This document shows, piece after piece, positions 9,543-64,000 of a stretch of 64,000 bases of DNA. The stretch lies in assembly GCA_963727445.1 (NCBI GenBank), contig CAVSGI010000010.1, positions 1,504,001-1,568,000 of the forward strand, given 5' to 3'. A program made the position numbers and the translations under genes. A model generated the notes under the pieces. The model was not told the origin of the DNA. It did not search any database and was given only the letters and a program-made list of their open reading frames with translations. How positions within the stretch are numbered: position 1 is the first letter of the stretch; the number at the start of each line of letters is the position of its first letter. Source of the stretch: an uncultured delta proteobacterium (GTDB taxonomy: Bacteria; Myxococcota_A; Polyangia; Polyangiales; B10-G4).

Positions 9543-11306
9543 TCATGGCAGGTCGAGGGCCCATGCCGGGACGACCGCACCCCGACCGGCGCACGCGCCC
9601 CCCTCGGCGCTGCTGTAGTCGCCGCGCGTTGGATCGACGAAGACCTCGGCGGTGTTGCCGACGATGTCGCTGTTCAGCTCGTGGCCCAGCCGAGCGCGGG
9701 CTTCGTCGAGCGTGAGGTGGTCGAGGCCCGTGTCGTGGCGCCGGCCGTAGGCGATGAAGTCGGTGACGTCGGTGACGTAGCAGTTGTCGTCGAAGTCGTT
9801 GTCCGTGGCGATCTGCGAATCGGCGATGTCGGCGGCCTGGGGCACCTCACGGACGTACTCGGCCTGGTAGATCAGACCCATGTGGTTGTAGTCGCGTTCG
9901 GCGATGGCCGTGGTGAGGCCCGAGAAGACGTTGCCGCGGATGGTGTGCCCCGTGGCCCACACCCGAAACTCCAGGAACTGGTCGACGCCGATCAGCGTGT
10001 TGTTCCGGGCGGTGAAGTGGTGGCCCATGCGTTCGAAGACCTCGCCCTGGTCGAAGGGGCCGCCCGAGCCACCGAGGCGAATGCGACCGCCACCCACGAC
10101 GAGATTGCCGTCGAAGGTGATGTTCGACGGAGACCATTGCCCGAGGCTGCCGAAGTCGTGGATGACGTTTCCGGAAATGTCGAACGGACCCTCTGCCGGG
10201 TTCTTGAAGAAGAACGCCTGAGGCACGTGGTAGATGTGGTTGTTCCGGATCGTGAGCTCGCCGTTGCCGCCACAGTCTTCGATGTAGGTCTCGCAGGAGA
10301 GGGTGGTGATGGCCCCGAAGTGCTGCCCGTCCGTCGTGGTGCGCCAGTCGTGAGTGACGCCGTCGTCGATCGGGATCAGGTCGTGGAGGATGTTCGACTC
10401 GACGGTGATCGCATAGGGCCCGCCTCCGTCTCCTCGATTCACCCTGACGAGGCCGGGATTGCCGCCACCACTGGTGGCGTACTCGTAGACCTCGTTGCCA
10501 CGAACGACGATGTCGTGCGTCTGGTTTCGCGGATCCGAAGCGTTGCCCGTTCCGCCGCCGATGTTGATGGCGCCCTGGTGGACGGTGATGTTCTCGATGT
10601 TCCAGTACGCCGTCTCCTGAGACAGGCTCCCCACACGGATGTTGCCAGCGCCGGACGCGCATGCGCGTTCGCCGGGAAAGGAGCGCACGGTGATCGGTTC
10701 GCTGGGCGTTCCGGACGCGACGTCGTACGTGGTGCCACCAGCCCATGCGGGGAGACTGACGCGACCGATCGAGAGCAGGCCCCGAACCGTACCCGCACTG
10801 GAATCTCCCCAGCTCACCACCTTGCTGTCGTGCGCGTTCGCGTCATCGTAGACGCCTCCCCTCAAGTAGATGACGTCACCGGGGCCCGCCTGGCGCACCG
10901 CTTCCTGCGGCGTCCTCAAAGGAGCCTCGAAGCTCGCGTCGTTGGCGTCGTCGCCCTCGGGTGAGACGTACCAGCACCGCCCCCCGCCCACGGCTTCGCA
11001 CAGGGCCACGGCCGCTTCATCCCGCTGGGCCGGCCGCTCGGCATCCTCGCAGCCCACGATCGGCGCCCCGCTCCCCTCTCCTCCGGGAGCGCCTTCGGGG
11101 ACCGGGACCATCGTGCTCCCGTCCATCGCGCCATCGGTCGGCACTTCTGCATCGGGCGCCGGCGCGCCGCTGTCGTCGACGTCCCCTCCGCCGTCCGGGG
11201 CTGACGTTCCCGAATCGGGCGATCCTGCGGTGTCGTCACAGCCGACGAGGGTCAGCCCAAGCGACAGTCCGACGATGGAAAGGAGGGGGTTTGCCTGGAT
11301 CCGCAT
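9543..11306 (-). CDS. Right-handed beta-helix (DUF1565/pectate-lyase-like) lipoprotein
   Basis: LVGC lipobox; WYVSPEGDDAN..S.EAPLRT.QEA....PGDVIYLRGGVY; repeated I.V..N.. strands. Confidence 0.8.
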   Translation of the reverse strand: MRIQANPLLSIVGLSLGLTLVGCDDTAGSPDSGTSAPDGGGDVDDSGAPAPDAEVPTDGAMDGSTMVPVPEGAPGGEGSGAPIVGCEDAERPAQRDEAAVALCEAVGGGRCWYVSPEGDDANDASFEAPLRTPQEAVRQAGPGDVIYLRGGVYDDANAHDSKVVSWGDSSAGTVRGLLSIGRVSLPAWAGGTTYDVASGTPSEPITVRSFPGERACASGAGNIRVGSLSQETAYWNIENITVHQGAINIGGGTGNASDPRNQTHDIVVRGNEVYEYATSGGGNPGLVRVNRGDGGGPYAITVESNILHDLIPIDDGVTHDWRTTTDGQHFGAITTLSCETYIEDCGGNGELTIRNNHIYHVPQAFFFKNPAEGPFDISGNVIHDFGSLGQWSPSNITFDGNLVVGGGRIRLGGSGGPFDQGEVFERMGHHFTARNNTLIGVDQFLEFRVWATGHTIRGNVFSGLTTAIAERDYNHMGLIYQAEYVREVPQAADIADSQIATDNDFDDNCYVTDVTDFIAYGRRHDTGLDHLTLDEARARLGHELNSDIVGNTAEVFVDPTRGDYSSAEGGACAGRGAVVPAWALDLP

Positions 11307-11352
11307 GGTGATCACTATGCGGATCTCGGGCCCGCACCACCACGCCGACGGT

Positions 11353-11367
11353 CTTAACCGGGCTTAG
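11353..11367 (-). promoter_or_regulatory. Putative operator direct repeat CTAAG-N5-TTAAG
   Basis: Minus strand CTAAGCCCGGTTAAG, 46 nt upstream of ATG 11306; near-identical copy 46 nt upstream of the paralog at 14538. Confidence 0.55.
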
Positions 11368-11368
11368 C

Positions 11369-12479
11369 TCACCAACGAATCGCCGCTCCGTCGAAGCGTA
11401 CGGTGGCACCGTCGTGCCAACCGGTACCTACGCGAAAGGATCGGATGCCGCGGTTGACCACGTCTTTCGACAGGACGCCGGTTTCACCGGAGAGAACTCG
11501 AAGCGGCACCTGGTAGCGGCGATACCCGACGTTCGCCGCGAGGGTCAGGGCCCCCACGAGGAAGAAATCCTGGCCCGAAGAGGCTGGGGTCGAAATGCCC
11601 AGCTGGGCCCAATAGCCGTGTGCGTCGCTCTCGATCGCGACGTAGAGCTCGAGGAAAGCGAGCTGAAACTGTCCTTCATCGAGGGTCAGTGGGTAGTCGA
11701 GTGCTTCGATGCGGAGGTTCTCCCAGCACGAGGGATACGGCGGGTCCACTGGATCACAGACGGGTCTGCCGTACTCCTCGCCCGACGGGTAGACATCCCG
11801 CGCGCAGTGGGCCGTCCATTCCCAGTAGTGGTCCCCGTCCTGGGCCGAGGCGCTCCCCGTTGCGAAATCGATGCACGTGGGATTCGGAGCTGCGGAATCC
11901 CGCGGACTCGTCAGCCATCGGAAAACCGAGGTCCGCTGGTGGGTTCAGGAGCACGCCGATGACGTCACTGCACGTGACGCGACTGGAGCTGTCCTCGGCG
12001 ACGAGCCTGACGTGGTACTGCTCGGCGGGCGTCAGCTCGAAGAGAGTCGTCGCCACGACCGGGTCCGCGCCCGCGGCGCCCACCAGAAAACTCCGCGCCA
12101 GCTCGGGATTGTCGTCGCTGGTGACCGTTCGAAACAGCTCGCCCGCCAGGAGCTGCTCCTCGGAGGCGGCGATGTCCACCTCGTACGCGAAGAGCTCATC
12201 GAGGTTGTCCGCCTCCCAAGCGATGCGCGCTTGGCTTGCGGTGACCCACTCGACGTGGAGATTCGTGATGGTAATCGCTCCGGGCTCGGCCTCCGGTCGT
12301 CCACAGACCCCGGCCGCACCACGCACGCAGACGTTTGCGCTCCTGTCGCACTGCCACCCAGCCGCGCAGGGACACTCGAGGCCGGTGGTGGGCACGGGCT
12401 CGAGCACGCAGCCCCCGACGACCATCGCGAGGAGTGTCGAGAAGGCGCCGAGGACCTGGGGCAACGGCTTCTTCACCAC
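11369..12479 (-). pseudogene. FN3-like Cys-rich lipoprotein interrupted by a single-base frameshift near 11895 (pseudogene or sequencing error)
   Basis: 5' part VVKKPLPQ...VGGC...LTPAEQYHVRLVA in one frame; 3' part ...APNPTCIDFATG...CDPVDPPYPSCWENL...IRW in the adjacent frame. Confidence 0.6.
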
Positions 12480-12501
12480 GAGCGAAGTATAGCTGAAACC
12501 G

Positions 12502-14331
12502 TCACCGCCGCGGGCAGGCCCACTCGCCGAGGGGATACGCGCCGATGTCGACGGACGCGACGCCGAAGAACTCACCGACGCCAGCGCCGACGGCCGGGCT
12601 CGTGGCCGACAGGTGCAGGTCCGCCGGGGCGCCGACGAAGTCTGGGTCTGCCGAGATGCTGCTGCTCTCCTCGTCGAACTCGCTCCGAAACTCTGGCAGG
12701 GTGTAGGGCGTGCCCGAGTACTCGCCGCCGGTCCAGTTCGGACGCAGATGGATGTCTGCCTGGGTGTTGTCGAAGAAGAGGTTGTTGAAGGAGCTGTAGT
12801 GCCCCACGTAGTCGTCGACCGTGGTGGTCGTTCCGCCGCTGTGGAGGTAGAACCCCGCGTCCAGGCCGGCGAAGATGTTGTTGAAGAAGCGATGGCCGGT
12901 AGGCCCATCGAAGCCCAGGCGGATGCCGACGCCGCCGCCGTAGAAGTCGTTGTTGAAGACCCAATTGTCGTCGCTGTCCTCGGCACTGCCCGGCAGGCGG
13001 ACGCCGACCCGAGCGTTGACCACGACGTTGCCGTAGATCCGCCAGTGGCCCCCTGGTCGATACTCGGCGTCCGTCGGCTGACAGCCGTCGGTGTTCGTCG
13101 CGGACCACACGCAGCGGTAGCCACCTGGCTCGAAAGCCGTGTTCACGTCGTGGATGTAGTTGTAGCGGGCGATCAGGTTGGAGACGCCGCTCTTGACGCC
13201 TATCGCGGCCTGGCCCGGGATGTCGAAGACCTCGTTGTACTCCACGACGTGGGGGTTGTCCGGGTCGGAGACCATGAACGTGATCCCCTTGCTGTTCGAG
13301 ACGCCACCCCAGTAGACGGAGTCGAACACGACGTTGTAGCGGACCAGCGCCCCTCCCGAGCTCCAGATCCGCATGCCGTAGGAGTTGTCGTTGCCGTTCG
13401 AGGTGTGACCGAAGACGTTGCCCTCCACGACGATGTCGTCGGCACCTTCGAAGAAGATGGGCTGCGGCTGCGCGTAGTAGATCTCCAGGCCACGCACGAC
13501 GAGGTGGTCCGACCAGAACCGGCCGAGACCCCGCTGGCTCAGCTCGTACACCTCGTCGTTGGGGTCCTCACCCGCCGGTGGATAGAAGTAGATGAAGCAG
13601 CCTTCGTTGTCGCCGAAGCACTGATTGCCGTCGGCGTCCGCCTTCGTCCAGTGGTCGGGGTCGACCAGGTTCGAGACGTTGTCGTGGTCCCGGCCGCCGT
13701 CGAGGTCCGACTGGTGGGTGACCCGCCGGTCCCCATGGAACATTGCCTTCGGATCGTTTTCGAGGAACCCGGCCGGCGTGCGCCAGATGTTCGCATCGTA
13801 CGACTCCCAGCTTCGTCCCTCCGTGCTCAGCGATCCGTAGATCCGCACGCGCTCGCCCGGGTATCCGCGAATGGTCACGTAGGCGGTCTCGGTCCCGTCA
13901 TCGATGCCGACGTCGTAGGAGGGCTCCTCCATCACGCGGTAGAGGCCTTCGCGAATGGTGAGCGTATCGCCCGGGGTGAGGGCGGACAGGCCTTTTCGGA
14001 TGCTGCGGAATGGCGACTGCATCGTGCCCGGGTCGTCGTCGTCACCGGTGGTGGCCACGAAGTACTCGGTGCCCACGGTGGACAGCGGCGTCGTCTCGCA
14101 CGAAACCGGGTCGATGCAGGCGCCACAGTCGAGGACGCACGTAGTGCAGTCTTCGCCGCCACTACACACGTCGTCGCCGCACATCGGCGCGCCCCCGGCA
14201 TCTGCTCGGCCCGCCGCGTCGGGAGGGTCGCTCGCGTCCGGGAGCGGGCTCGCATCGCCTGCGCTCATGTCATTCGAGGTGGCGCAACCGAGGAGGCACA
14301 CCATCAACGAGCAGTAGCAAAATCGACCCAC
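12502..14331 (-). CDS. Right-handed beta-helix (DUF1565-like) lipoprotein with Cys-rich CGD..C...E.C..C..DC motif
   Basis: LLGC lipobox; YFVATTGDDDDPGT..SPFRSI..G...L.PGDTL.IREGLY; many N-ladder strands; C-terminal DLHLSATSPAVGAG...DIGAY. Confidence 0.85.
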   Translation of the reverse strand: MGRFCYCSLMVCLLGCATSNDMSAGDASPLPDASDPPDAAGRADAGGAPMCGDDVCSGGEDCTTCVLDCGACIDPVSCETTPLSTVGTEYFVATTGDDDDPGTMQSPFRSIRKGLSALTPGDTLTIREGLYRVMEEPSYDVGIDDGTETAYVTIRGYPGERVRIYGSLSTEGRSWESYDANIWRTPAGFLENDPKAMFHGDRRVTHQSDLDGGRDHDNVSNLVDPDHWTKADADGNQCFGDNEGCFIYFYPPAGEDPNDEVYELSQRGLGRFWSDHLVVRGLEIYYAQPQPIFFEGADDIVVEGNVFGHTSNGNDNSYGMRIWSSGGALVRYNVVFDSVYWGGVSNSKGITFMVSDPDNPHVVEYNEVFDIPGQAAIGVKSGVSNLIARYNYIHDVNTAFEPGGYRCVWSATNTDGCQPTDAEYRPGGHWRIYGNVVVNARVGVRLPGSAEDSDDNWVFNNDFYGGGVGIRLGFDGPTGHRFFNNIFAGLDAGFYLHSGGTTTTVDDYVGHYSSFNNLFFDNTQADIHLRPNWTGGEYSGTPYTLPEFRSEFDEESSSISADPDFVGAPADLHLSATSPAVGAGVGEFFGVASVDIGAYPLGEWACPRR

Positions 14332-14476
14332 AGAGACCTCCTGACGTGCTGAGCGGAGGGCAATTTCGGTGTTCGCCAGCGTCTGCCTCCGCTCCCTTCA
14401 CAAAGCGTGATCGCGGTCGCCGCGTCCAGGCATCGCTTCTGAGCTGCTCTGAGCTGGCCTCGGATCGTCCGCGCAT

Positions 14477-14491
14477 CTAAGTGCGGTTAAG
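14477..14491 (+). promoter_or_regulatory. Putative operator direct repeat CTAAG-N5-TTAAG
   Basis: CTAAGTGCGGTTAAG, 46 nt upstream of ATG 14538. Confidence 0.55.
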
Positions 14492-14537
14492 CGAGGCGCG
14501 GTGGCTCGCCCCAGCCTCCATCGCCCAGGATGGAGAC

Positions 14538-16304
14538 ATGGTCGAACGAGGGCTTTGTTGCGCACTGGTCGCCTTGTGCGCGTGTACCGGGGGGGTGGTG
14601 GGCTCGACGAGCCCCGAGGACGGAAGCGCGCCGGTACCGGCGGACGGCGGGGTCGACGCCACGAGCAGCGGCCCCGACGCCGCTCCGGATGGGGCGGCAC
14701 GGGACGCGGAGATCCCACGAGATCCGGGGCCATCAGACGCCCCAGGCGGACCGATCGTCGACGCTCCCATCGTCGGCTGCGAGGACGCCGACCGTCCCGC
14801 ACGCCGGCTCGCGAGCCCAGACGAGGTTTGTGAAGCGGTGGATGGCGCGCGCTGCTGGTACGTGAGCCCCGAGGGCAGCGACGATGCTCCCGGTACCTTC
14901 GAGCAGCCGTTGGGCAAAGCGCAGGAAGCCGCCAAGCGCGTCGGGCCTGGCGACATCATCTATCTGCGCGGAGGGGTCTACGACGAGGACAACGCCTTCG
15001 TGTCCAGAGTGAACCAATGGAGCAACCCCGACGCGGGGGTGCAGCACGCCTTCTTCCGCGCGGGGTCGATCTCCTTGCCCGACTGGGCCGGCGGCGACAA
15101 CTACGACGTGGCATCCGGAACCGAGGAAGCGCCCATCGTCCTTCGCTCCTTCCCCGGCGAGCGGGCCTGTGTCTCAGGCGCAGGCGGAATCGGGTTCGGC
15201 AGCTTGAGGACCGAGATCGCCTATTGGAGCGTCGAGAACGTCACGCTCCACGGGGCCGCCATCGGCATCGGGGGCGGCCGTGGCACGGCGGACGCCCCTG
15301 AAAACCAGACGCACGAAATCACCGTGGCCGGCAACGAGGTCTTCGGGGTTCAGGAGAGCTCCGGTCACAACACGGGGCTCGTCAAGGTCGACCGGGGAGA
15401 CGGCGGCGGTCCCTACGACATCACGATCGAGAGCAACATCCTTCATGAGCTCTATTGCCGAGACAGCGATGGGGTGGTGCGTGGATGGGACACGATGCAC
15501 GACGCACAACACTACGCGGCGATCACGACGCTGAGCTGCGAGACCTACTTCGGCGTCGAATGTGGCGGCAACGGTGCGCTCACCGCTCGCAACAACCACA
15601 TCTATCACGTCCCCCAGGCCTTCTTCCTCAAGAACCCGGCGGTGGGCCCGTTCCATCTCTACGACAACGTCATCCACGACATCGGGAGCATGGGGAAGTG
15701 GTCGCCTTCGAACATCACCTTCGAAAACAACCTCGTCTATGGAGGGATCGGTCGAATCGACCTCGGTGGCTCCGGTGGCAGTGCCGAGACCACGGGCGTC
15801 TACGAGCGCATGGGCCGCAATCTGACCGTGCGAAACAATACGTTCATCGGCATGAACACCCTGGTCCACTTTCGGATCTACGCGTCCGGCCACACGGTCG
15901 AGGGCAACATCATCCAAGGTCTGTTCTCCATGGACCAGGCCGACTGGGACCACATGGGGTACATCTTCCAGTCGCAGGGATGGGTCAACCCGGACATGGA
16001 GCCCAACATCGAGCTGTCGCAGCTGGCGCGCGAAAACACCTTCGATGACAACTGCTTCATCACACCGAACCACGACTTTCTCGCCTACGGCCGTCGCTTC
16101 GATCCGGGCACCGGAACGGAGCTCACGCACCTGAGCCTCGAGGACGCCCGTACGCGCCTGTCCTACGAGCTGACCAGCGACGTCGTCGATTCGTTGGAGG
16201 AGGCGCTGGTCGAACCGACGACGGGGGACTACCGCGTACGTGTTGACGGCCCGTGCGCTGGTCGCGGAGCCACGCCGCCCGACTGGGCCAGGTCGATCCC
16301 ATGA
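14538..16304 (+). CDS. Right-handed beta-helix lipoprotein, paralog of 9543-11306
   Basis: LCAC lipobox; shares long identical blocks with 9543-11306 (APIVGCEDA, RGDGGGPY.IT.ESNILH, AITTLSCETY, NNHIYHVPQAFF.KNPA.GPF, WSPSNITF). Confidence 0.85.
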   Translation: MVERGLCCALVALCACTGGVVGSTSPEDGSAPVPADGGVDATSSGPDAAPDGAARDAEIPRDPGPSDAPGGPIVDAPIVGCEDADRPARRLASPDEVCEAVDGARCWYVSPEGSDDAPGTFEQPLGKAQEAAKRVGPGDIIYLRGGVYDEDNAFVSRVNQWSNPDAGVQHAFFRAGSISLPDWAGGDNYDVASGTEEAPIVLRSFPGERACVSGAGGIGFGSLRTEIAYWSVENVTLHGAAIGIGGGRGTADAPENQTHEITVAGNEVFGVQESSGHNTGLVKVDRGDGGGPYDITIESNILHELYCRDSDGVVRGWDTMHDAQHYAAITTLSCETYFGVECGGNGALTARNNHIYHVPQAFFLKNPAVGPFHLYDNVIHDIGSMGKWSPSNITFENNLVYGGIGRIDLGGSGGSAETTGVYERMGRNLTVRNNTFIGMNTLVHFRIYASGHTVEGNIIQGLFSMDQADWDHMGYIFQSQGWVNPDMEPNIELSQLARENTFDDNCFITPNHDFLAYGRRFDPGTGTELTHLSLEDARTRLSYELTSDVVDSLEEALVEPTTGDYRVRVDGPCAGRGATPPDWARSIP

Positions 16305-16474: not shown

Positions 16475-16615
16475 ACCAGGTGGTCCACCTGGTCCGGTGG
16501 TCCACCCTGCGCTCCGCCCCGAGCTTCCGGAAAAGCGTTCGATTCCCGCACCTGAGCTCGTCGGCACGCGCCGTGCTGAATCTCATCGAGCGCGACGACG
16601 CGCGGGAGGAAATCG

Positions 16616-18382
16616 ATGGAAAGAAGCGTGGGGAAAGTGTGGATCTTGGGGGTGCTGCTCGCCGTGGCGGGAGTGGGCTGCATCGAAGTCACACCGTGGC
16701 CGGGGGCAGAGGGCCCGGGCTCGGATTCGGGATCGACGATGACCGATCCCGACGCGGGCACGATGGAGCCAGAGCCCGACGCGTCCTCGGAAGTGGGCGC
16801 GGTGGGCATGTTCCTCCAGATCGGCGACGAGACGCCCTCGCAGCTCTATGAGCTCACGGTCGACGCGGACACCTACGCGGAGATCGTCGACGCCGTGGGG
16901 CACGTGCCTGACGGCTTGATCGAAGGCGAGCCTTCGCGCGAGCCGGGGACCCGGAGCGTCACGCCGGTCGTCTCGTCGGTCGCCGACAGTCGGATCTTCG
17001 AAGGGATCAGCCGGAGCGAACGCGGGGCGTCGACCGATGATCTGGGCAGGATGCGGATCCTCTTCGGTGGCGGCGTCGCCCAACCGATCGGGCTCCTTCT
17101 GCCTGCAGTACAGAAGGTTCGCGCGGCCGCCGCCCGCAGCCACACCACGCTGGACCAGGTCGACTTCGAGCTCACCTTCGAGCTGCCACTCTCGGACACC
17201 GAAGTGTCGACAATCACGTACACGGGGCTCGAGAACCAGCCCCCGCCGAGCCCGCCCCCCTTCGTCGACGTGAGCGGCGACAGCTGGGCTGCCTCACCCG
17301 AGATGAGCGACGAGCTGCGGGCGCGGCAGCTGATCGACGTGGAGACCGATTTCCGGGTCGATGGAGATCTCCGCTTCAGCCGTGCCTCGGATGGCTCCCT
17401 GCTCCTGCAGCCCTGGACCATGGACGAGCCAGACTCGGCCGACTACACGATCTGGCGGGAGACCGGCGGCCAGCGCTCACTCGTGCTGGACATCCAGGAC
17501 CGGATCGGTGGCCGTGTGCTTCACCGTTTCCGCATCCCGCGCGCCGACCTTCCGACGGACATCGACTCCGGGATGATGTCTGCGTCGATGTCCGGCTACC
17601 TGAAGATCGGGGACATCAAGGGCGAGTCCACGGACGCACGTCACGAGATCGAGCTCTTCGACACGCACTTCGTGCGGCCCCCCACGAGCACCGAGTTCGA
17701 TCTGGCGCGCCGGCAGCTCGGGCTGTTGTCCACCCGCAGCACCGCGACTCTTGTCGACAGCTGGACCACCAACCGCGACGCGACCATCCGGGCACTTCGC
17801 GCGGCGAGCGTGCAGGCCAACGATCAGGAAGGGCTCCTCTGCGTGACGATGATGCCCCTCCTCGGAGAGATGATGCTGGCGCTTCAGGCCGGTCTCGACG
17901 ACGGTTCGATCCCGGAGACGCGCGAGCTTCGACGGATCCTCGCGGATTACTACGAAGCCTACGAGCTCCTCGGTGAGCCGGAGCATCACGCGTTCATCGG
18001 CGGCGACCTCGCGTCCGCGGCGTACGACCGTCCCCTCGACGCCGCGGACGCGGAGGTGGCTTGCGGCGCCATCCCGCGCATCATGGGCGTCTGGGACGAC
18101 ACGGACATCGTCCACATCCTCGTCGACTCGGACGCGCAGGCACTCGGTGATGACGGCAGGGACCTGCTCATCGGTGGCAGCGGTCGCTACTTCGACGACC
18201 TGGTCGTGGAGCTCATCGAGCGGTTGGACCGGCTCGCCGCCGATCCCACGAGCGAGCCGGTGGCCACACCGATCGACGCTCTGCTCATCATCAATCGGGT
18301 CGGCGAGACGCTCGACCAGCACCAGTCACTGGCCGTCAGCCGTTACAGGATGTCGGACGTGCTCGTCAGCAGCTACCGCTGA
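16616..18382 (+). CDS. Hypothetical lipoprotein carrying many short signature peptides of unrelated families
   Basis: GGAGG RBS; AGVGC lipobox; motifs IGLLLPAVQKVR, YLKIGDIKGESTD, DVLVSSY, GRDLLIGG, PIDALLIIN etc. (see findings). Confidence 0.8.
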   Translation: MERSVGKVWILGVLLAVAGVGCIEVTPWPGAEGPGSDSGSTMTDPDAGTMEPEPDASSEVGAVGMFLQIGDETPSQLYELTVDADTYAEIVDAVGHVPDGLIEGEPSREPGTRSVTPVVSSVADSRIFEGISRSERGASTDDLGRMRILFGGGVAQPIGLLLPAVQKVRAAAARSHTTLDQVDFELTFELPLSDTEVSTITYTGLENQPPPSPPPFVDVSGDSWAASPEMSDELRARQLIDVETDFRVDGDLRFSRASDGSLLLQPWTMDEPDSADYTIWRETGGQRSLVLDIQDRIGGRVLHRFRIPRADLPTDIDSGMMSASMSGYLKIGDIKGESTDARHEIELFDTHFVRPPTSTEFDLARRQLGLLSTRSTATLVDSWTTNRDATIRALRAASVQANDQEGLLCVTMMPLLGEMMLALQAGLDDGSIPETRELRRILADYYEAYELLGEPEHHAFIGGDLASAAYDRPLDAADAEVACGAIPRIMGVWDDTDIVHILVDSDAQALGDDGRDLLIGGSGRYFDDLVVELIERLDRLAADPTSEPVATPIDALLIINRVGETLDQHQSLAVSRYRMSDVLVSSYR

Positions 18383-62475: not shown

Positions 62476-64000
62476 GTAACCGTTCACGCCTGACGAAAGC
62501 TTGATCATCTCGATCGCTTACGAGTTCGGAATTTACAGCGGCGAGCGGCTGTGATCTACCGTTCGAGGTGGACCTGGCCGCCGAGAACGCCGCGCTCAAG
62601 GCCGAACTGGCCGCGCGCGACGCTCGTGTCGCGGAGTTGGAGGCGAAGGTCGCTCGTCTCGCCGAGCTGGAATCGGAGCTGGCGAAGCTGCGCGAGCTGC
62701 TCGGTCGTGACTCGAGCAACTCGAATCTACCGCCGTCGAGCGACGGCCCCGGCAAGAGCCGCAATCAGCGCAAAGCCGAGCGCAGGAAGCGCAAGGTCAA
62801 GAAGCGCGGCGGCCAGAAGGGTCACGAGGGCTCGCACCGCGCGCTGCTGCCGGCCGAGCGGATGGACGCGGTCGAGGATTACTTTCCGTGCGCGTGCGGG
62901 CGCTGCGGCCGGAGGCTGCCCCGGGTCGCCGACCCACGAGCGAAGCGCTACCAGCAGACAGATCTCGATCGCGATGGAGTGTTTCGGACGGAGCACCGGC
63001 GCCACCGCGTGACCTGCCCGTCGTGTGGACACCGGACGTGGGCGACGTACGACGACAACGAGATCCCGCGTTCTCCGTTTGGCCCCGGGCTGACGAGCGC
63101 GGTGGTGCTGCTCACGGGCGTGTACCACCTGAGCCGGCGCAAGACGGTGAGCTTGTTGTGGGAGCTGCTCGGCGTGCGGATGTCGGTGGGAAGCGTCAGC
63201 GGGATCGAGAAACGGATGAGCGCAGCCGTGGCGCCCGCGGTGGACGAAGCGTGGGAGCACGCGAGAGCCGCGAGCGTCAAGCATGCCGATGGCACGACCT
63301 GGCTTCGCGCGGGCGTGGCGCTGTCCCTATGGGTCATCGCGACGGCGGCGGTCTCCGTGTTCAAGGTCCTGCCCAACGGCCGGGGCAAGACGCTGCGCGA
63401 CAAGCTCTTCGTCGAGGTCCGCGGCATCCTGGTCAGCGACCGAGCGACGGCGCTGAAGTTCTGGGCGATGAAAAAGCGCCAAGTCTGCTGGGCTCACCTG
63501 CTTCGCAAGTTCGTCTCCTTCTCGCAGCGCGCCGGCCCGGCCGAATCCATCGGCAAGGAGCTGCTCGACTACACGGCGATCCTCTTCGACTACTGGTCCA
63601 AGTACCAACACGGCGAGCTGAGCCGCACGGCGTTCGTCGAGCGGATGGCACCGGTGCGTCTTCAGGTCGAGGCCACGCTCGAGCGCGCGGTGGCGATGGG
63701 CGAGGACGAGCTGTCCGGCTCTTGCGCCGACATCCTCGCGCACCGCGAGGCCCTGTGGACCTTCGTCGACCGCAACGGCGTCGAGCCGACGAACAACCAC
63801 GCCGAGCGCGAGCTGCGCGCGTTCGTGCTCTGGCGCAAGCGCTCGTTCGGCACCCAGAGTGAACACGGAGATTGGTTCGCCGAGCGGATGATGACCATCG
63901 CGCACACGGCGCGAAAGCAGGGCATCGCCGTCCTCGACTTCCTCACCGCCTGCTGCGAGGCGAAGCTCGAGGGGGCAGACGCCCCGTCGCTCTTCGACCG
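62476..64000 (+). mobile_element. IS66-family insertion sequence (single-ORF, ISBst12-group-like), right end outside window
   Basis: Left end GTAACCGTTCAC at 62476 (IS66 ends begin GTAA) followed by transposase; no accessory tnpA/tnpB ORFs. Confidence 0.85.
62568..64000 (+). CDS. IS66 transposase (partial at 3' end)
   Basis: Hand translation from GTG 62568: coiled coil, DSSNSNLPPSSD, GGQKGH, C..CG / CPSCG zinc finger, HADGT, LVSDR, QVCWAHLLR, EPTNNHAERELR..V.WRK.S.GTQS. Confidence 0.93.
   Translation, partial: MDLAAENAALKAELAARDARVAELEAKVARLAELESELAKLRELLGRDSSNSNLPPSSDGPGKSRNQRKAERRKRKVKKRGGQKGHEGSHRALLPAERMDAVEDYFPCACGRCGRRLPRVADPRAKRYQQTDLDRDGVFRTEHRRHRVTCPSCGHRTWATYDDNEIPRSPFGPGLTSAVVLLTGVYHLSRRKTVSLLWELLGVRMSVGSVSGIEKRMSAAVAPAVDEAWEHARAASVKHADGTTWLRAGVALSLWVIATAAVSVFKVLPNGRGKTLRDKLFVEVRGILVSDRATALKFWAMKKRQVCWAHLLRKFVSFSQRAGPAESIGKELLDYTAILFDYWSKYQHGELSRTAFVERMAPVRLQVEATLERAVAMGEDELSGSCADILAHREALWTFVDRNGVEPTNNHAERELRAFVLWRKRSFGTQSEHGDWFAERMMTIAHTARKQGIAVLDFLTACCEAKLEGADAPSLFD

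What the first reader, a model, noticed from the sequence alone, without database searches (positions are those of the whole stretch)
16616..18382. Lipoprotein built as a patchwork of short signature peptides from unrelated secreted-protein families
Seen: one 588-aa ORF with no recognisable full domain contains isolated 7-17 aa snippets: MFLQIGD (16808), TDDLGRMRILF (17033), IGLLLPAVQKVRAAAAR (17087), ITYTGLE (17213), YLKIGDIKGESTD..H (17597), WDDTDIVH (18092), GRDLLIGG (18155), TPIDALLIIN (18266) and YRMSDVLVSSY (C-terminus, M at 18350). Established, from recall: YLKI.GI.GES.D..H and DVLVSSY are conserved strands of T6SS Hcp tube proteins; TD..GR.K..F resembles the VgrG/gp5 OB-fold motif; IGLLLPAVQKVR.AA.R is the post-prepilin helix of planctomycete DUF1559 proteins; G.D.L.GG is the RTX Ca-binding nonapeptide; PIDAL..IN is a planctomycete dockerin-like motif. 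I cannot assign ITYTGLE or WDDTDIVH firmly. Each snippet lacks the rest of its parent domain, the two main Hcp pieces are about 250 aa apart, and the DUF1559-like snippet uses A/T-ending codons (CTT CCT GCA GTA GTT) unusual here. Inference: this many hallmark peptides in one surface protein is unlikely by chance. It may reflect an undescribed process that captures short conserved coding fragments into a scaffold, or selection for mimic/decoy epitopes or shared docking tags on the cell surface.
Basis: partly seen in the sequence, partly recalled or inferred. Interest (0 to 1): 0.85.

Follow-up and report, generated by a model that had tools for sequence, protein, structure and literature searches.

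The report
Surface protein stitched from foreign peptides
This lipoprotein carries short, near-exact pieces of other microbes' surface and secreted proteins, and the same pieces recur, in the correct reading frame, in unrelated exported proteins of many bacterial groups, which points to an apparently undescribed way of borrowing and displaying foreign peptides.

Summary
The 588-aa ORF is real. Five of its nine snippets match real parent proteins: planctomycete DUF1559 pilin-like proteins, two Hcp strands, a dockerin-like repeat and a giant Pirellulaceae exported protein. One is RTX-like and three are unconfirmed. It is not an artefact: a 79% ortholog and independent contigs exist. The scaffold is an orphan family whose members hold different snippets, or none, at the same slots. 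The same snippets sit off-context in unrelated proteins of Bacteroidota, Chloroflexota, Alphaproteobacteria, Verrucomicrobiota, Actinomycetota, planctomycetes and a small candidate phylum; those with intact N-termini mostly look exported. That phylum has 2,500-5,300-aa ORFs packed with Hcp, VgrG, tail-tube, DUF1559, HU, EF-Tu and tyrosine-kinase fragments. Snippets arrive as clean DNA block replacements, lie almost only in the coding frame (76 vs 0-1 per other frame), and are then under purifying selection like the rest of the gene. I found no template, flanking repeat, shared reverse transcriptase or vector. Best model: microhomology-guided short-patch capture of foreign DNA, kept by selection for displaying linear peptides as mimic or decoy. 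Mechanism and function are inferred. Ten literature searches found no description.

The parts
16479..16506 (+). Two copies of an 11-nt repeat, putative enhancer-binding-protein site
   Evidence: D20; related half-sites upstream of three other lipoprotein-like genes of the genome. Function inferred.
16563..16575 (+). Sigma-54-like -24/-12 promoter pattern, 53 nt before the start codon
   Evidence: consensus recalled; 186 strict matches in the genome. Also upstream of the second snippet-bearing gene (C17).
16616..18382 (+). Patchwork lipoprotein gene P0001, 588 aa, orphan family of 9 known members
16616..16681 (+). Signal peptide ending in a lipobox-like Cys22
   Evidence: Read from the sequence; no predictor run; similar N-termini in family members
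16808..16828 (+). S1, res 65-71; possible Hcp first-strand variant, parent unconfirmed
   Evidence: 7 of 7 identical in P0002, absent in other members; no family hit
17033..17065 (+). S2, res 140-150; VgrG label not confirmed; a 6-residue core recurs in a Brevundimonas patchwork protein
17087..17137 (+). S3, res 158-174; post-prepilin helix of planctomycete DUF1559 proteins; slot filled in all 8 members that cover it
17213..17233 (+). S4, res 200-206; parent not found
   Evidence: covered by an identical independent contig (68)
17588..17644 (+). S5, res 325-343; Hcp N-terminal strand; other members hold other Hcp-like variants or an FG-GAP-associated peptide here
   Evidence: Pfam T6SS_HCP 1-17, E 0.006 (110); real Hcp L210 (65); 15-aa exact run with P0032 (69)
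18086..18121 (+). S6, res 491-502; conserved motif of a giant exported Pirellulaceae-type protein; only in P0001 and P0002 within the family
18155..18178 (+). S7, res 514-521; RTX-like calcium-binding repeat (label recalled)
   Evidence: no Pfam hit
18266..18295 (+). S8, res 551-560; planctomycete dockerin-like repeat
   Evidence: 9 of 10 fetched loci show the repeat context; Pfam Dockerin_1 on 1 of 3 tested
18344..18376 (+). S9, res 577-587; late Hcp strand, replacing the family's terminal helix sequence
   Evidence: Match to Hcp repeats L211-L215; P0003 holds another variant
17630..18379 (+). C-terminal helical bundle of the scaffold, res 339-588
   Evidence: AlphaFold model; only generic four-helix-bundle matches, Z at most 9.6, rmsd 3.9 over 141 residues

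Best explanation
The gene encodes an exported display scaffold whose tolerant slots have been overwritten by 7-25-residue pieces of other organisms' genes. Step 1 (shown): the pieces are copied, not converged on, and enter as DNA block replacements. [quoted passage not shown] Step 3 (shown): they are kept almost only in the coding frame, in proteins that mostly look exported, and then evolve under purifying selection. Step 4 (inferred, weakest): selection favours showing linear, conserved peptides of neighbours' abundant surface, injection-system and bulk proteins as mimics or decoys for something that recognises such peptides (predators, competitors, phage or tailocin receptors, proteases). 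My odds: copying 0.9, generic microhomology route 0.5, mimic/decoy role 0.35-0.4.
For: Exact 11-17-aa runs with unrelated proteins. Clean block replacement among Brevundimonas homologs. Different peptides at one slot in homologs. DNA runs of 24-33 nt shared between unrelated patchwork genes, also within genome G442; 21 runs of 16 nt or more against at most 14 in 40 synonymous redraws. Coding frame holds 19 of 19 segments of 9 aa or more in 13 genes and 76 against 0-1 per other frame in seven giant ORFs, whereas frame-blind microhomology predicts 27-42% in frame. A frame-blind DNA scan put 7 of 7 off-context S6 copies in long open frames. dN/dS in snippets 0.08-0.14. SPDIR makes 3 to about 100 bp microindels, and foreign DNA templated 12 of 39 events in one mutant background (passages of 10.1101/2023.11.22.568220). 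G000 has no detected Hcp, DUF1559 or Phage_GPD gene (21-23; 85.6% complete).
Against: SPDIR is below 1e-12 in wild-type Acinetobacter, which is hard to square with nine slots in one gene and dozens in the giant ORFs while almost all other genes have none. No donor codon signature (z -1.3 to 1.9 over 10 genes). With outgroup-defined masks, snippets are not more constrained than the rest of the gene (124, p 0.10-1.0). Synonymous rates are not raised in snippets, so there is no sign of ongoing overwriting. S8 and S9 are modelled inside a helix, unlike the parent strand for S9. No receptor or phenotype is known. The redraw null ignores codon-pair bias, and repeated copies are not independent.
Confidence: 0.4

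Rival explanations
1. A dedicated, gene-targeted and frame-aware capture system writes foreign peptide-coding fragments (from DNA or RNA) into chosen exported genes, as an acquired memory of proteins in the surroundings.
For: Extreme concentration in few genes: rank 1 of 5,884 in G000 (122); S3-type matches confined to one giant gene per genome, split into two ORFs in one (97, 103). Near-total frame bias. A shared vocabulary across phyla, including strings with no parent among my donor sets. Donors include very abundant proteins, HU and EF-Tu. Both snippet-bearing genes of G000 share a promoter architecture.
Against: No intragenomic DNA template, no repeats flanking snippets, no shared neighbouring enzyme. 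RVT_1 in only 1 of 6 patchwork genomes of the G442 phylum. No vector found in viral contigs, phages or plasmids.
Confidence: 0.25
2. Near-neutral invasion: abundant donor DNA overwrites weakly constrained exported genes, and in-frame pieces of real proteins survive only because they damage the fold less than off-frame pieces. The peptides have no role of their own.
For: Snippets often replace scaffold segments of similar pattern. Constraint equals that of the rest of the gene. Junctions often fall on residues shared by donor and scaffold (87, 88, by inspection).
Against: Other exported orphans of G000 show almost none. No off-frame copies in genes rich in low-complexity linkers. Abundant DNA families such as ABC transporters and response regulators were not seen among Pfam/NCBIfam fragment hits. 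dN/dS about 0.1 means the residues are not free.
Confidence: 0.2
3. The snippets are docking tags that co-assemble with their parent polymers (pilin-like filaments, Hcp or tail tubes, cohesins), letting the cell latch onto neighbours such as planctomycetes.
For: Several parents are polymer subunits or binding modules. S3, S5 and S6 fall in low-confidence, probably flexible segments. Planctomycete repeat proteins carry the S3 helix in most repeats.
Against: EF-Tu, HU and kinase-core fragments do not fit. S8 and S9 lie in a scaffold helix. Slots accept peptides of different families.
Confidence: 0.1
4. Chance resemblance, convergence by point mutation, or an assembly or polishing artefact.
For: Three of nine labels (S1, S2, S4) could not be confirmed. 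A loose ungapped test was noisy: 10 segments against up to 8 in 200 shuffles. No run holds the whole gene. All patchwork records whose source I could read are MAGs or metagenome contigs.
Against: 79% ortholog from another source. Independent contigs: identical over window 17139-17297, and 5 differences over 18110-18258. Exact runs of 15-17 aa. Orthologous sets with normal synonymous divergence. Records from JGI, ENA, Logan and NCBI.
Confidence: 0.03

Closest known systems
[quoted passage not shown]
   Same: 3 to about 100 bp replacement-type microindels templated by heterologous intra- or extragenomic DNA at microhomologies; same size and form as the blocks seen here.
   Different: Described as a very rare, highly variable mutation type. 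Nothing in the passages read concerns frame preference, concentration in particular exported genes, or a recurring cross-phylum vocabulary.
Bridging themes (PMC8136508, abstract and outline read)
   Same: Short segments shared between otherwise unrelated domains, proposed to invade existing domains.
   Different: Those are 20-80-residue homologous themes, including ones between the most ancient domains. Here the pieces are 7-25 residues, near-exact, polymorphic between close homologs, and many unrelated donors occur in one chain.
Diversity-generating retroelements and cassette antigenic variation such as Borrelia vls or Anaplasma msp2 (recalled)
   Same: Targeted sequence replacement in surface proteins.
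   Different: They use a homologous template in the same genome; none was found here. Donors are non-homologous foreign families, and RT does not track the trait.
CRISPR spacer acquisition and integron cassettes (recalled)
   Same: Short foreign fragments are stored in the chromosome.
   Different: No repeats or att-like sites flank the pieces; they are fused in frame inside protein-coding genes.
Parent families: T6SS Hcp (PF05638), DUF1559 (PF07596), dockerin type I (PF00404), phage/eCIS tail tube (PF06841), VgrG OB domain (PF04717)
   Same: Source of the snippets, near-exact over 7-25 residues.
   Different: The protein has none of these domains and is predicted to have an unrelated fold.

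Membership tests
T6SS Hcp (PF05638) | Full 129-position domain above the Pfam cut-off | tested here: not met
   12.8 bits against 23.5; positions 1-18 only
T6SS Hcp (PF05638) | Hcp beta-barrel fold | tested here: inconclusive
   Model pLDDT 58; no Foldseek hit at E 0.001 (41); VIA rows cover only the helical C-terminus
DUF1559 prepilin-like proteins | N-terminal methylation leader plus SBP_bac_10 domain | tested here: not met
   No PF07963 or PF07596 hit at E 10; only the 17-residue helix is shared
VgrG/gp5 OB domain | Phage_base_V or VgrG model hit, even fragmentary, at S2 | tested here: not met
Dockerin type I | Paired calcium-binding loop-helix repeats | tested here: not met
   Only the helix-start peptide is shared; the loop seen in parents is missing; no Pfam hit
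RTX proteins | Tandem nonapeptide repeats (HemolysinCabind) | tested here: not met
   Single copy; no Pfam hit
SPDIR-type mutation | Short replacement-type microindel from a heterologous template | tested here: met
   Shown for the S6-type block in Brevundimonas homologs, with the parent family identified. For P0001 inferred from protein alignment only.
SPDIR-type mutation | Extended DNA microhomology with an identified donor strand at both crossovers | tested here: inconclusive
   Exact donor molecules not identified; no intragenomic donor
SPDIR-type mutation | Suppression by RecA, RecJ/ExoX, DprA | not testable with these tools
   Needs genetics
DGR target gene | Template repeat in the genome and linked RT | tested here: not met
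   No template; the single RT of G000 lies on another contig beside a SWIM gene (57, 59, 123); genome 85.6% complete
CRISPR array or integron | Repeats or att sites flanking each insert | tested here: not met
Bridging themes | 20-80-residue segment shared between domains of independent origin | tested here: inconclusive
   Segments here are mostly shorter; scaffold fold not established

The most novel reading that the evidence does not exclude
Bacteria of many phyla have an acquired-memory system for proteins: a frame-aware machinery records conserved peptides of neighbours, phages and protists into dedicated exported display genes, and these genes then trade a common peptide vocabulary. It would be a peptide-level counterpart of CRISPR acquisition, used for camouflage or decoy.
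Probability: 0.2. Interest if true: 0.98.

Novelty: categorically new. Interest (0 to 1): 0.88.

Why it matters
If it holds, there is a widespread class of exported proteins built by in-frame capture of 7-25-residue pieces across phyla and possibly domains of life. This is horizontal transfer far below the domain level, caught between close homologs, and it makes the idea that proteins grow by borrowing short themes directly testable in living lineages (a Brevundimonas island, a small candidate phylum). It also hints at an unknown recognition system in soils and sediments that reads linear conserved peptides. In practice such proteins can be mis-annotated as Hcp, DUF1559 or tail-tube proteins, because fragments sum above family cut-offs, and they may distort profile searches and protein language models.

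Tried and rejected
Single known fold: no clear match; the ESM Atlas gave no usable hit; the N-terminal half was barely tested. Second AlphaFold job (P0033/P0034) had pLDDT 47 and was not used beyond suggesting a beta-solenoid. Intragenomic template: longest outside exact match 20 nt, none on a snippet; Brevundimonas snippet DNA is single-copy in 2 of 5 genomes and absent in 3. Donor codon footprint: none. Stronger constraint on snippets: seen with naive masks (84 of 95 against 341 of 432 identical, p 0.02; dN/dS 0.06-0.08 against 0.13) but this is what ascertainment predicts, and it vanished with outgroup masks. The three S6 orthologs were found by that motif, so their invariance is circular. 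Five-codon DNA pattern: reversed controls were as frequent in 3 of 5 genomes, so uninformative. Family in relatives: 0 of 60, 0 of 400 class genomes (only 3 candidates scored per genome), S3 pattern 0 of 400 phylum genomes; metagenome scan gave 1 weak locus, judged unrelated. Vector: none in viral contigs, plasmids (93, one 53% hit at E 1) or phages. RT link rejected. No RNA holder listed. No complex prediction was run. Earlier scan findings: none on this topic. Literature: searches returned 0 papers; some returned only SPDIR and bridging-theme papers. The library lacks most subscription papers and matches words only; no supplements were read, and the SPDIR preprint's supplementary mutation list could bear on frame and size comparisons.

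Full report
Observation. Window 16616-18382(+) encodes 588 aa with a lipoprotein-type N-terminus (signal read by eye). The genome is 9.47 Mb in 27 contigs, about 69% GC, 85.6% complete; earlier unchecked notes call it a myxobacterium. The nine snippets S1-S9 are at the stated coordinates. No family covers the protein. Hcp, DUF1559 and Phage_GPD genes were not found in the genome (21-23; the DUF1559 search rang in none of 14 controls, but rang in 5 of 5 planctomycete genomes).

Which labels hold. Against real parents fetched by accession or by DNA pattern, residues 152-174 align with DUF1559 proteins, 323-347 with an Hcp N-terminus, 577-588 with a late Hcp strand, and 475-505 with a giant exported planctomycete protein. 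S8 matches a dockerin-like repeat in 9 of 10 fetched loci from 4 of 5 planctomycete genomes; Pfam Dockerin_1 scored 1 of 3 tested. S7 is RTX-like by recall and by the ortholog's match to two repeat proteins of this genome. S1, S2 and S4 found no parent.

Not chance, not artefact. Exact runs with unrelated proteins are 17 aa (158-174), 15 aa (325-339, with a Lewinellaceae lipoprotein that also carries the S3 peptide) and 11 aa (491-501). The gene ranks 1 of 5,884 with a vocabulary that excludes its family; 1,000 shuffles reach at most 7 covered residues against 29 (122, partly circular). A looser test was noisy. A JGI protein is 79% identical and keeps S1, S3, S5 and S6 unchanged. Of two runs laid, one has a contig identical over 17139-17297 and the other a contig with 5 differences over 18110-18258; neither spans the gene. 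Four short foreign pieces of the 13 listed fall on S1, S5, S6 and S8.

A scaffold with slots. Of 30 hits among 1.84 billion representatives, 8 are colinear homologs and 22 share only snippets. S3 is filled in all 8 members that cover it, with varying ends. S5 holds different Hcp-like variants or an FG-GAP-associated peptide. S6-S8 occur only in P0001/P0002, and P0003 has its own S9 variant. The family was not found in 60 relatives or 400 class genomes. The model (pLDDT 58) has a beta-rich N-terminal half and a helical bundle at 339-588 with only generic matches. S3, S4, most of S5 and S6 lie in segments under pLDDT 50; S8 and S9 lie in the last helix.

A cross-phylum phenomenon. Seven of the 120 S6 loci are off-context, in five unrelated scaffolds from records titled Brevundimonas, Chloroflexia, Verrucomicrobiaceae, Actinomycetota and, for three orthologs, bacterium, UBP7 and Planctomycetales. 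All seven are in long open frames and share the parent's preceding residue. Planctomycete repeat proteins carry the S3 helix in most repeats. Two 51%-identical beta-helix proteins swap peptides of different families at the same slots. In the 24-genome phylum of G442, 6 genomes have giant ORFs of two unrelated families, 1,230-5,264 aa, with fragment hits to Hcp, gp19 tail tube, CIS tube, eCIS core, VgrG OB domain, DUF1559, FG-GAP, HU, two parts of EF-Tu and protein tyrosine kinase. In the class of G440 only 1 of 301 genomes had the S3 peptide; in Brevundimonas 5 of 151 have strong matches to the island. Recipients with intact N-termini mostly show export signals or the planctomycete extracellular motif by inspection; a few, such as P0010 and P0020, are unclear.

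Mechanism. In Brevundimonas the S6-type peptide is a block that starts abruptly after codons shared with homologs lacking it, and changes the length. Unrelated patchwork genes share 24-33-nt exact runs, including genes on different contigs of G442, beyond a synonymous-redraw null (21 runs of 16 nt or more against at most 14 in 40 redraws). So copying occurs at DNA level, and patchwork genes probably serve as secondary donors. There is no template in G000 or the Brevundimonas genomes, no flanking repeat, no shared neighbouring enzyme, RT in 1 of 6 patchwork genomes and no vector. SPDIR yields 3 to about 100 bp microindels at microhomologies, also from foreign DNA, but below 1e-12 in wild type (passages of 10.1101/2023.11.22.568220). 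Frame-blind microhomology would be in frame 27-42% of the time, whereas 19 of 19 and 76 of 77 segments of 9 aa or more are in frame (many proteins were found by protein search and copies are not independent, but the DNA scan and six-frame searches were frame-blind). Snippet codons match host usage. With outgroup masks dN/dS is 0.08-0.14 in snippets and 0.12-0.13 elsewhere, with equal synonymous rates: purifying selection, not stronger than the rest, and no sign of continual overwriting.

Function. Frame restriction, export and purifying selection imply that the peptide matters or is at least filtered. Slots accept different families, some snippets lose their parent shape, and donors include cytoplasmic bulk proteins, so linear recognition fits better than docking. 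I therefore favour display as mimic or decoy (overall 0.4), ahead of a dedicated capture system (0.25), near-neutral invasion (0.2), docking (0.1) and artefact (0.03). No receptor is identified. Both snippet-bearing genes of G000 (this one and C17:95366) have a sigma-54-like site and repeated upstream half-sites. Three of 283 such sites have three or more half-sites (background 7 of 20,000 windows); two of the three defined the motif, and the third precedes another lipoprotein. This suggests a shared envelope regulon.

Novelty. Ten searches found no description. The nearest ideas are SPDIR (passages read) and bridging themes (PMC8136508, abstract and outline); 10.1101/2024.07.02.601687 was seen only as a listing. 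DGR, cassette variation and CRISPR comparisons are recalled. The library omits most subscription papers, so prior description is not excluded. I rate the class of proteins as real and undescribed in what I could search, with mechanism and function open.

Noticed in passing
G000 C17:95366 (+), locus L002: Second snippet-bearing lipoprotein (239 aa) with a Pirellulaceae-type variant of the DUF1559 helix and different codons; no Pfam or NCBIfam hit.
   Followed up: partly
G000 C10:1520563+, C17:95310+, C9:299621-, C9:721595-: Sigma-54-like promoters with repeated upstream half-sites before four lipoprotein-like genes, one a cysteine-rich repeat peptide; the C17 and C9:299621 upstream regions look homologous. 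Possible regulon.
   Followed up: partly
window 9543-16304: Three lipoprotein-like genes of about 600 aa just upstream, two with right-handed beta-helix hits and one with a weak chondroitinase B hit.
   Followed up: no
G000 C1:30430-34044, L208: The genome's single RT (426 aa, retron-like by recall) next to a SWIM-finger gene and an unassigned 271-aa gene.
   Followed up: partly
L248:11212-16127, L250:13123-17419: Brevundimonas island of small exported patchwork proteins around a CsgG gene and followed by a CxxCxxCC gene; next to an integrase in one genome and recA in another.
   Followed up: partly
L160, L285-L289: Two unrelated families of giant patchwork ORFs; one lies beside clpP and transketolase, the other has an N-terminal FecR domain and a C-terminal cohesin-like domain and precedes a CHASE2 cyclase.
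   Followed up: partly
P0004, P0006, P0009, P0035-P0041 and relatives: Planctomycete exported repeat family with the DUF1559 helix inserted in most repeats.
   Followed up: partly
G596 C5:377262-380285, L211-L217: A 1,086-aa frame with five tandem Hcp domains in a Pirellulales genome.
   Followed up: no
L003-L122: Giant Pirellulaceae-type exported protein, parent of S6, with no NCBIfam hit over the 1,674 residues tested.
   Followed up: no
L290:4686-6971: Thrombospondin type-3 repeat protein in the class of G440 carrying DUF1559-type peptides; P0043 is built similarly.
   Followed up: no
window 62568-63998: IS66 transposase at the window's end.
   Followed up: no
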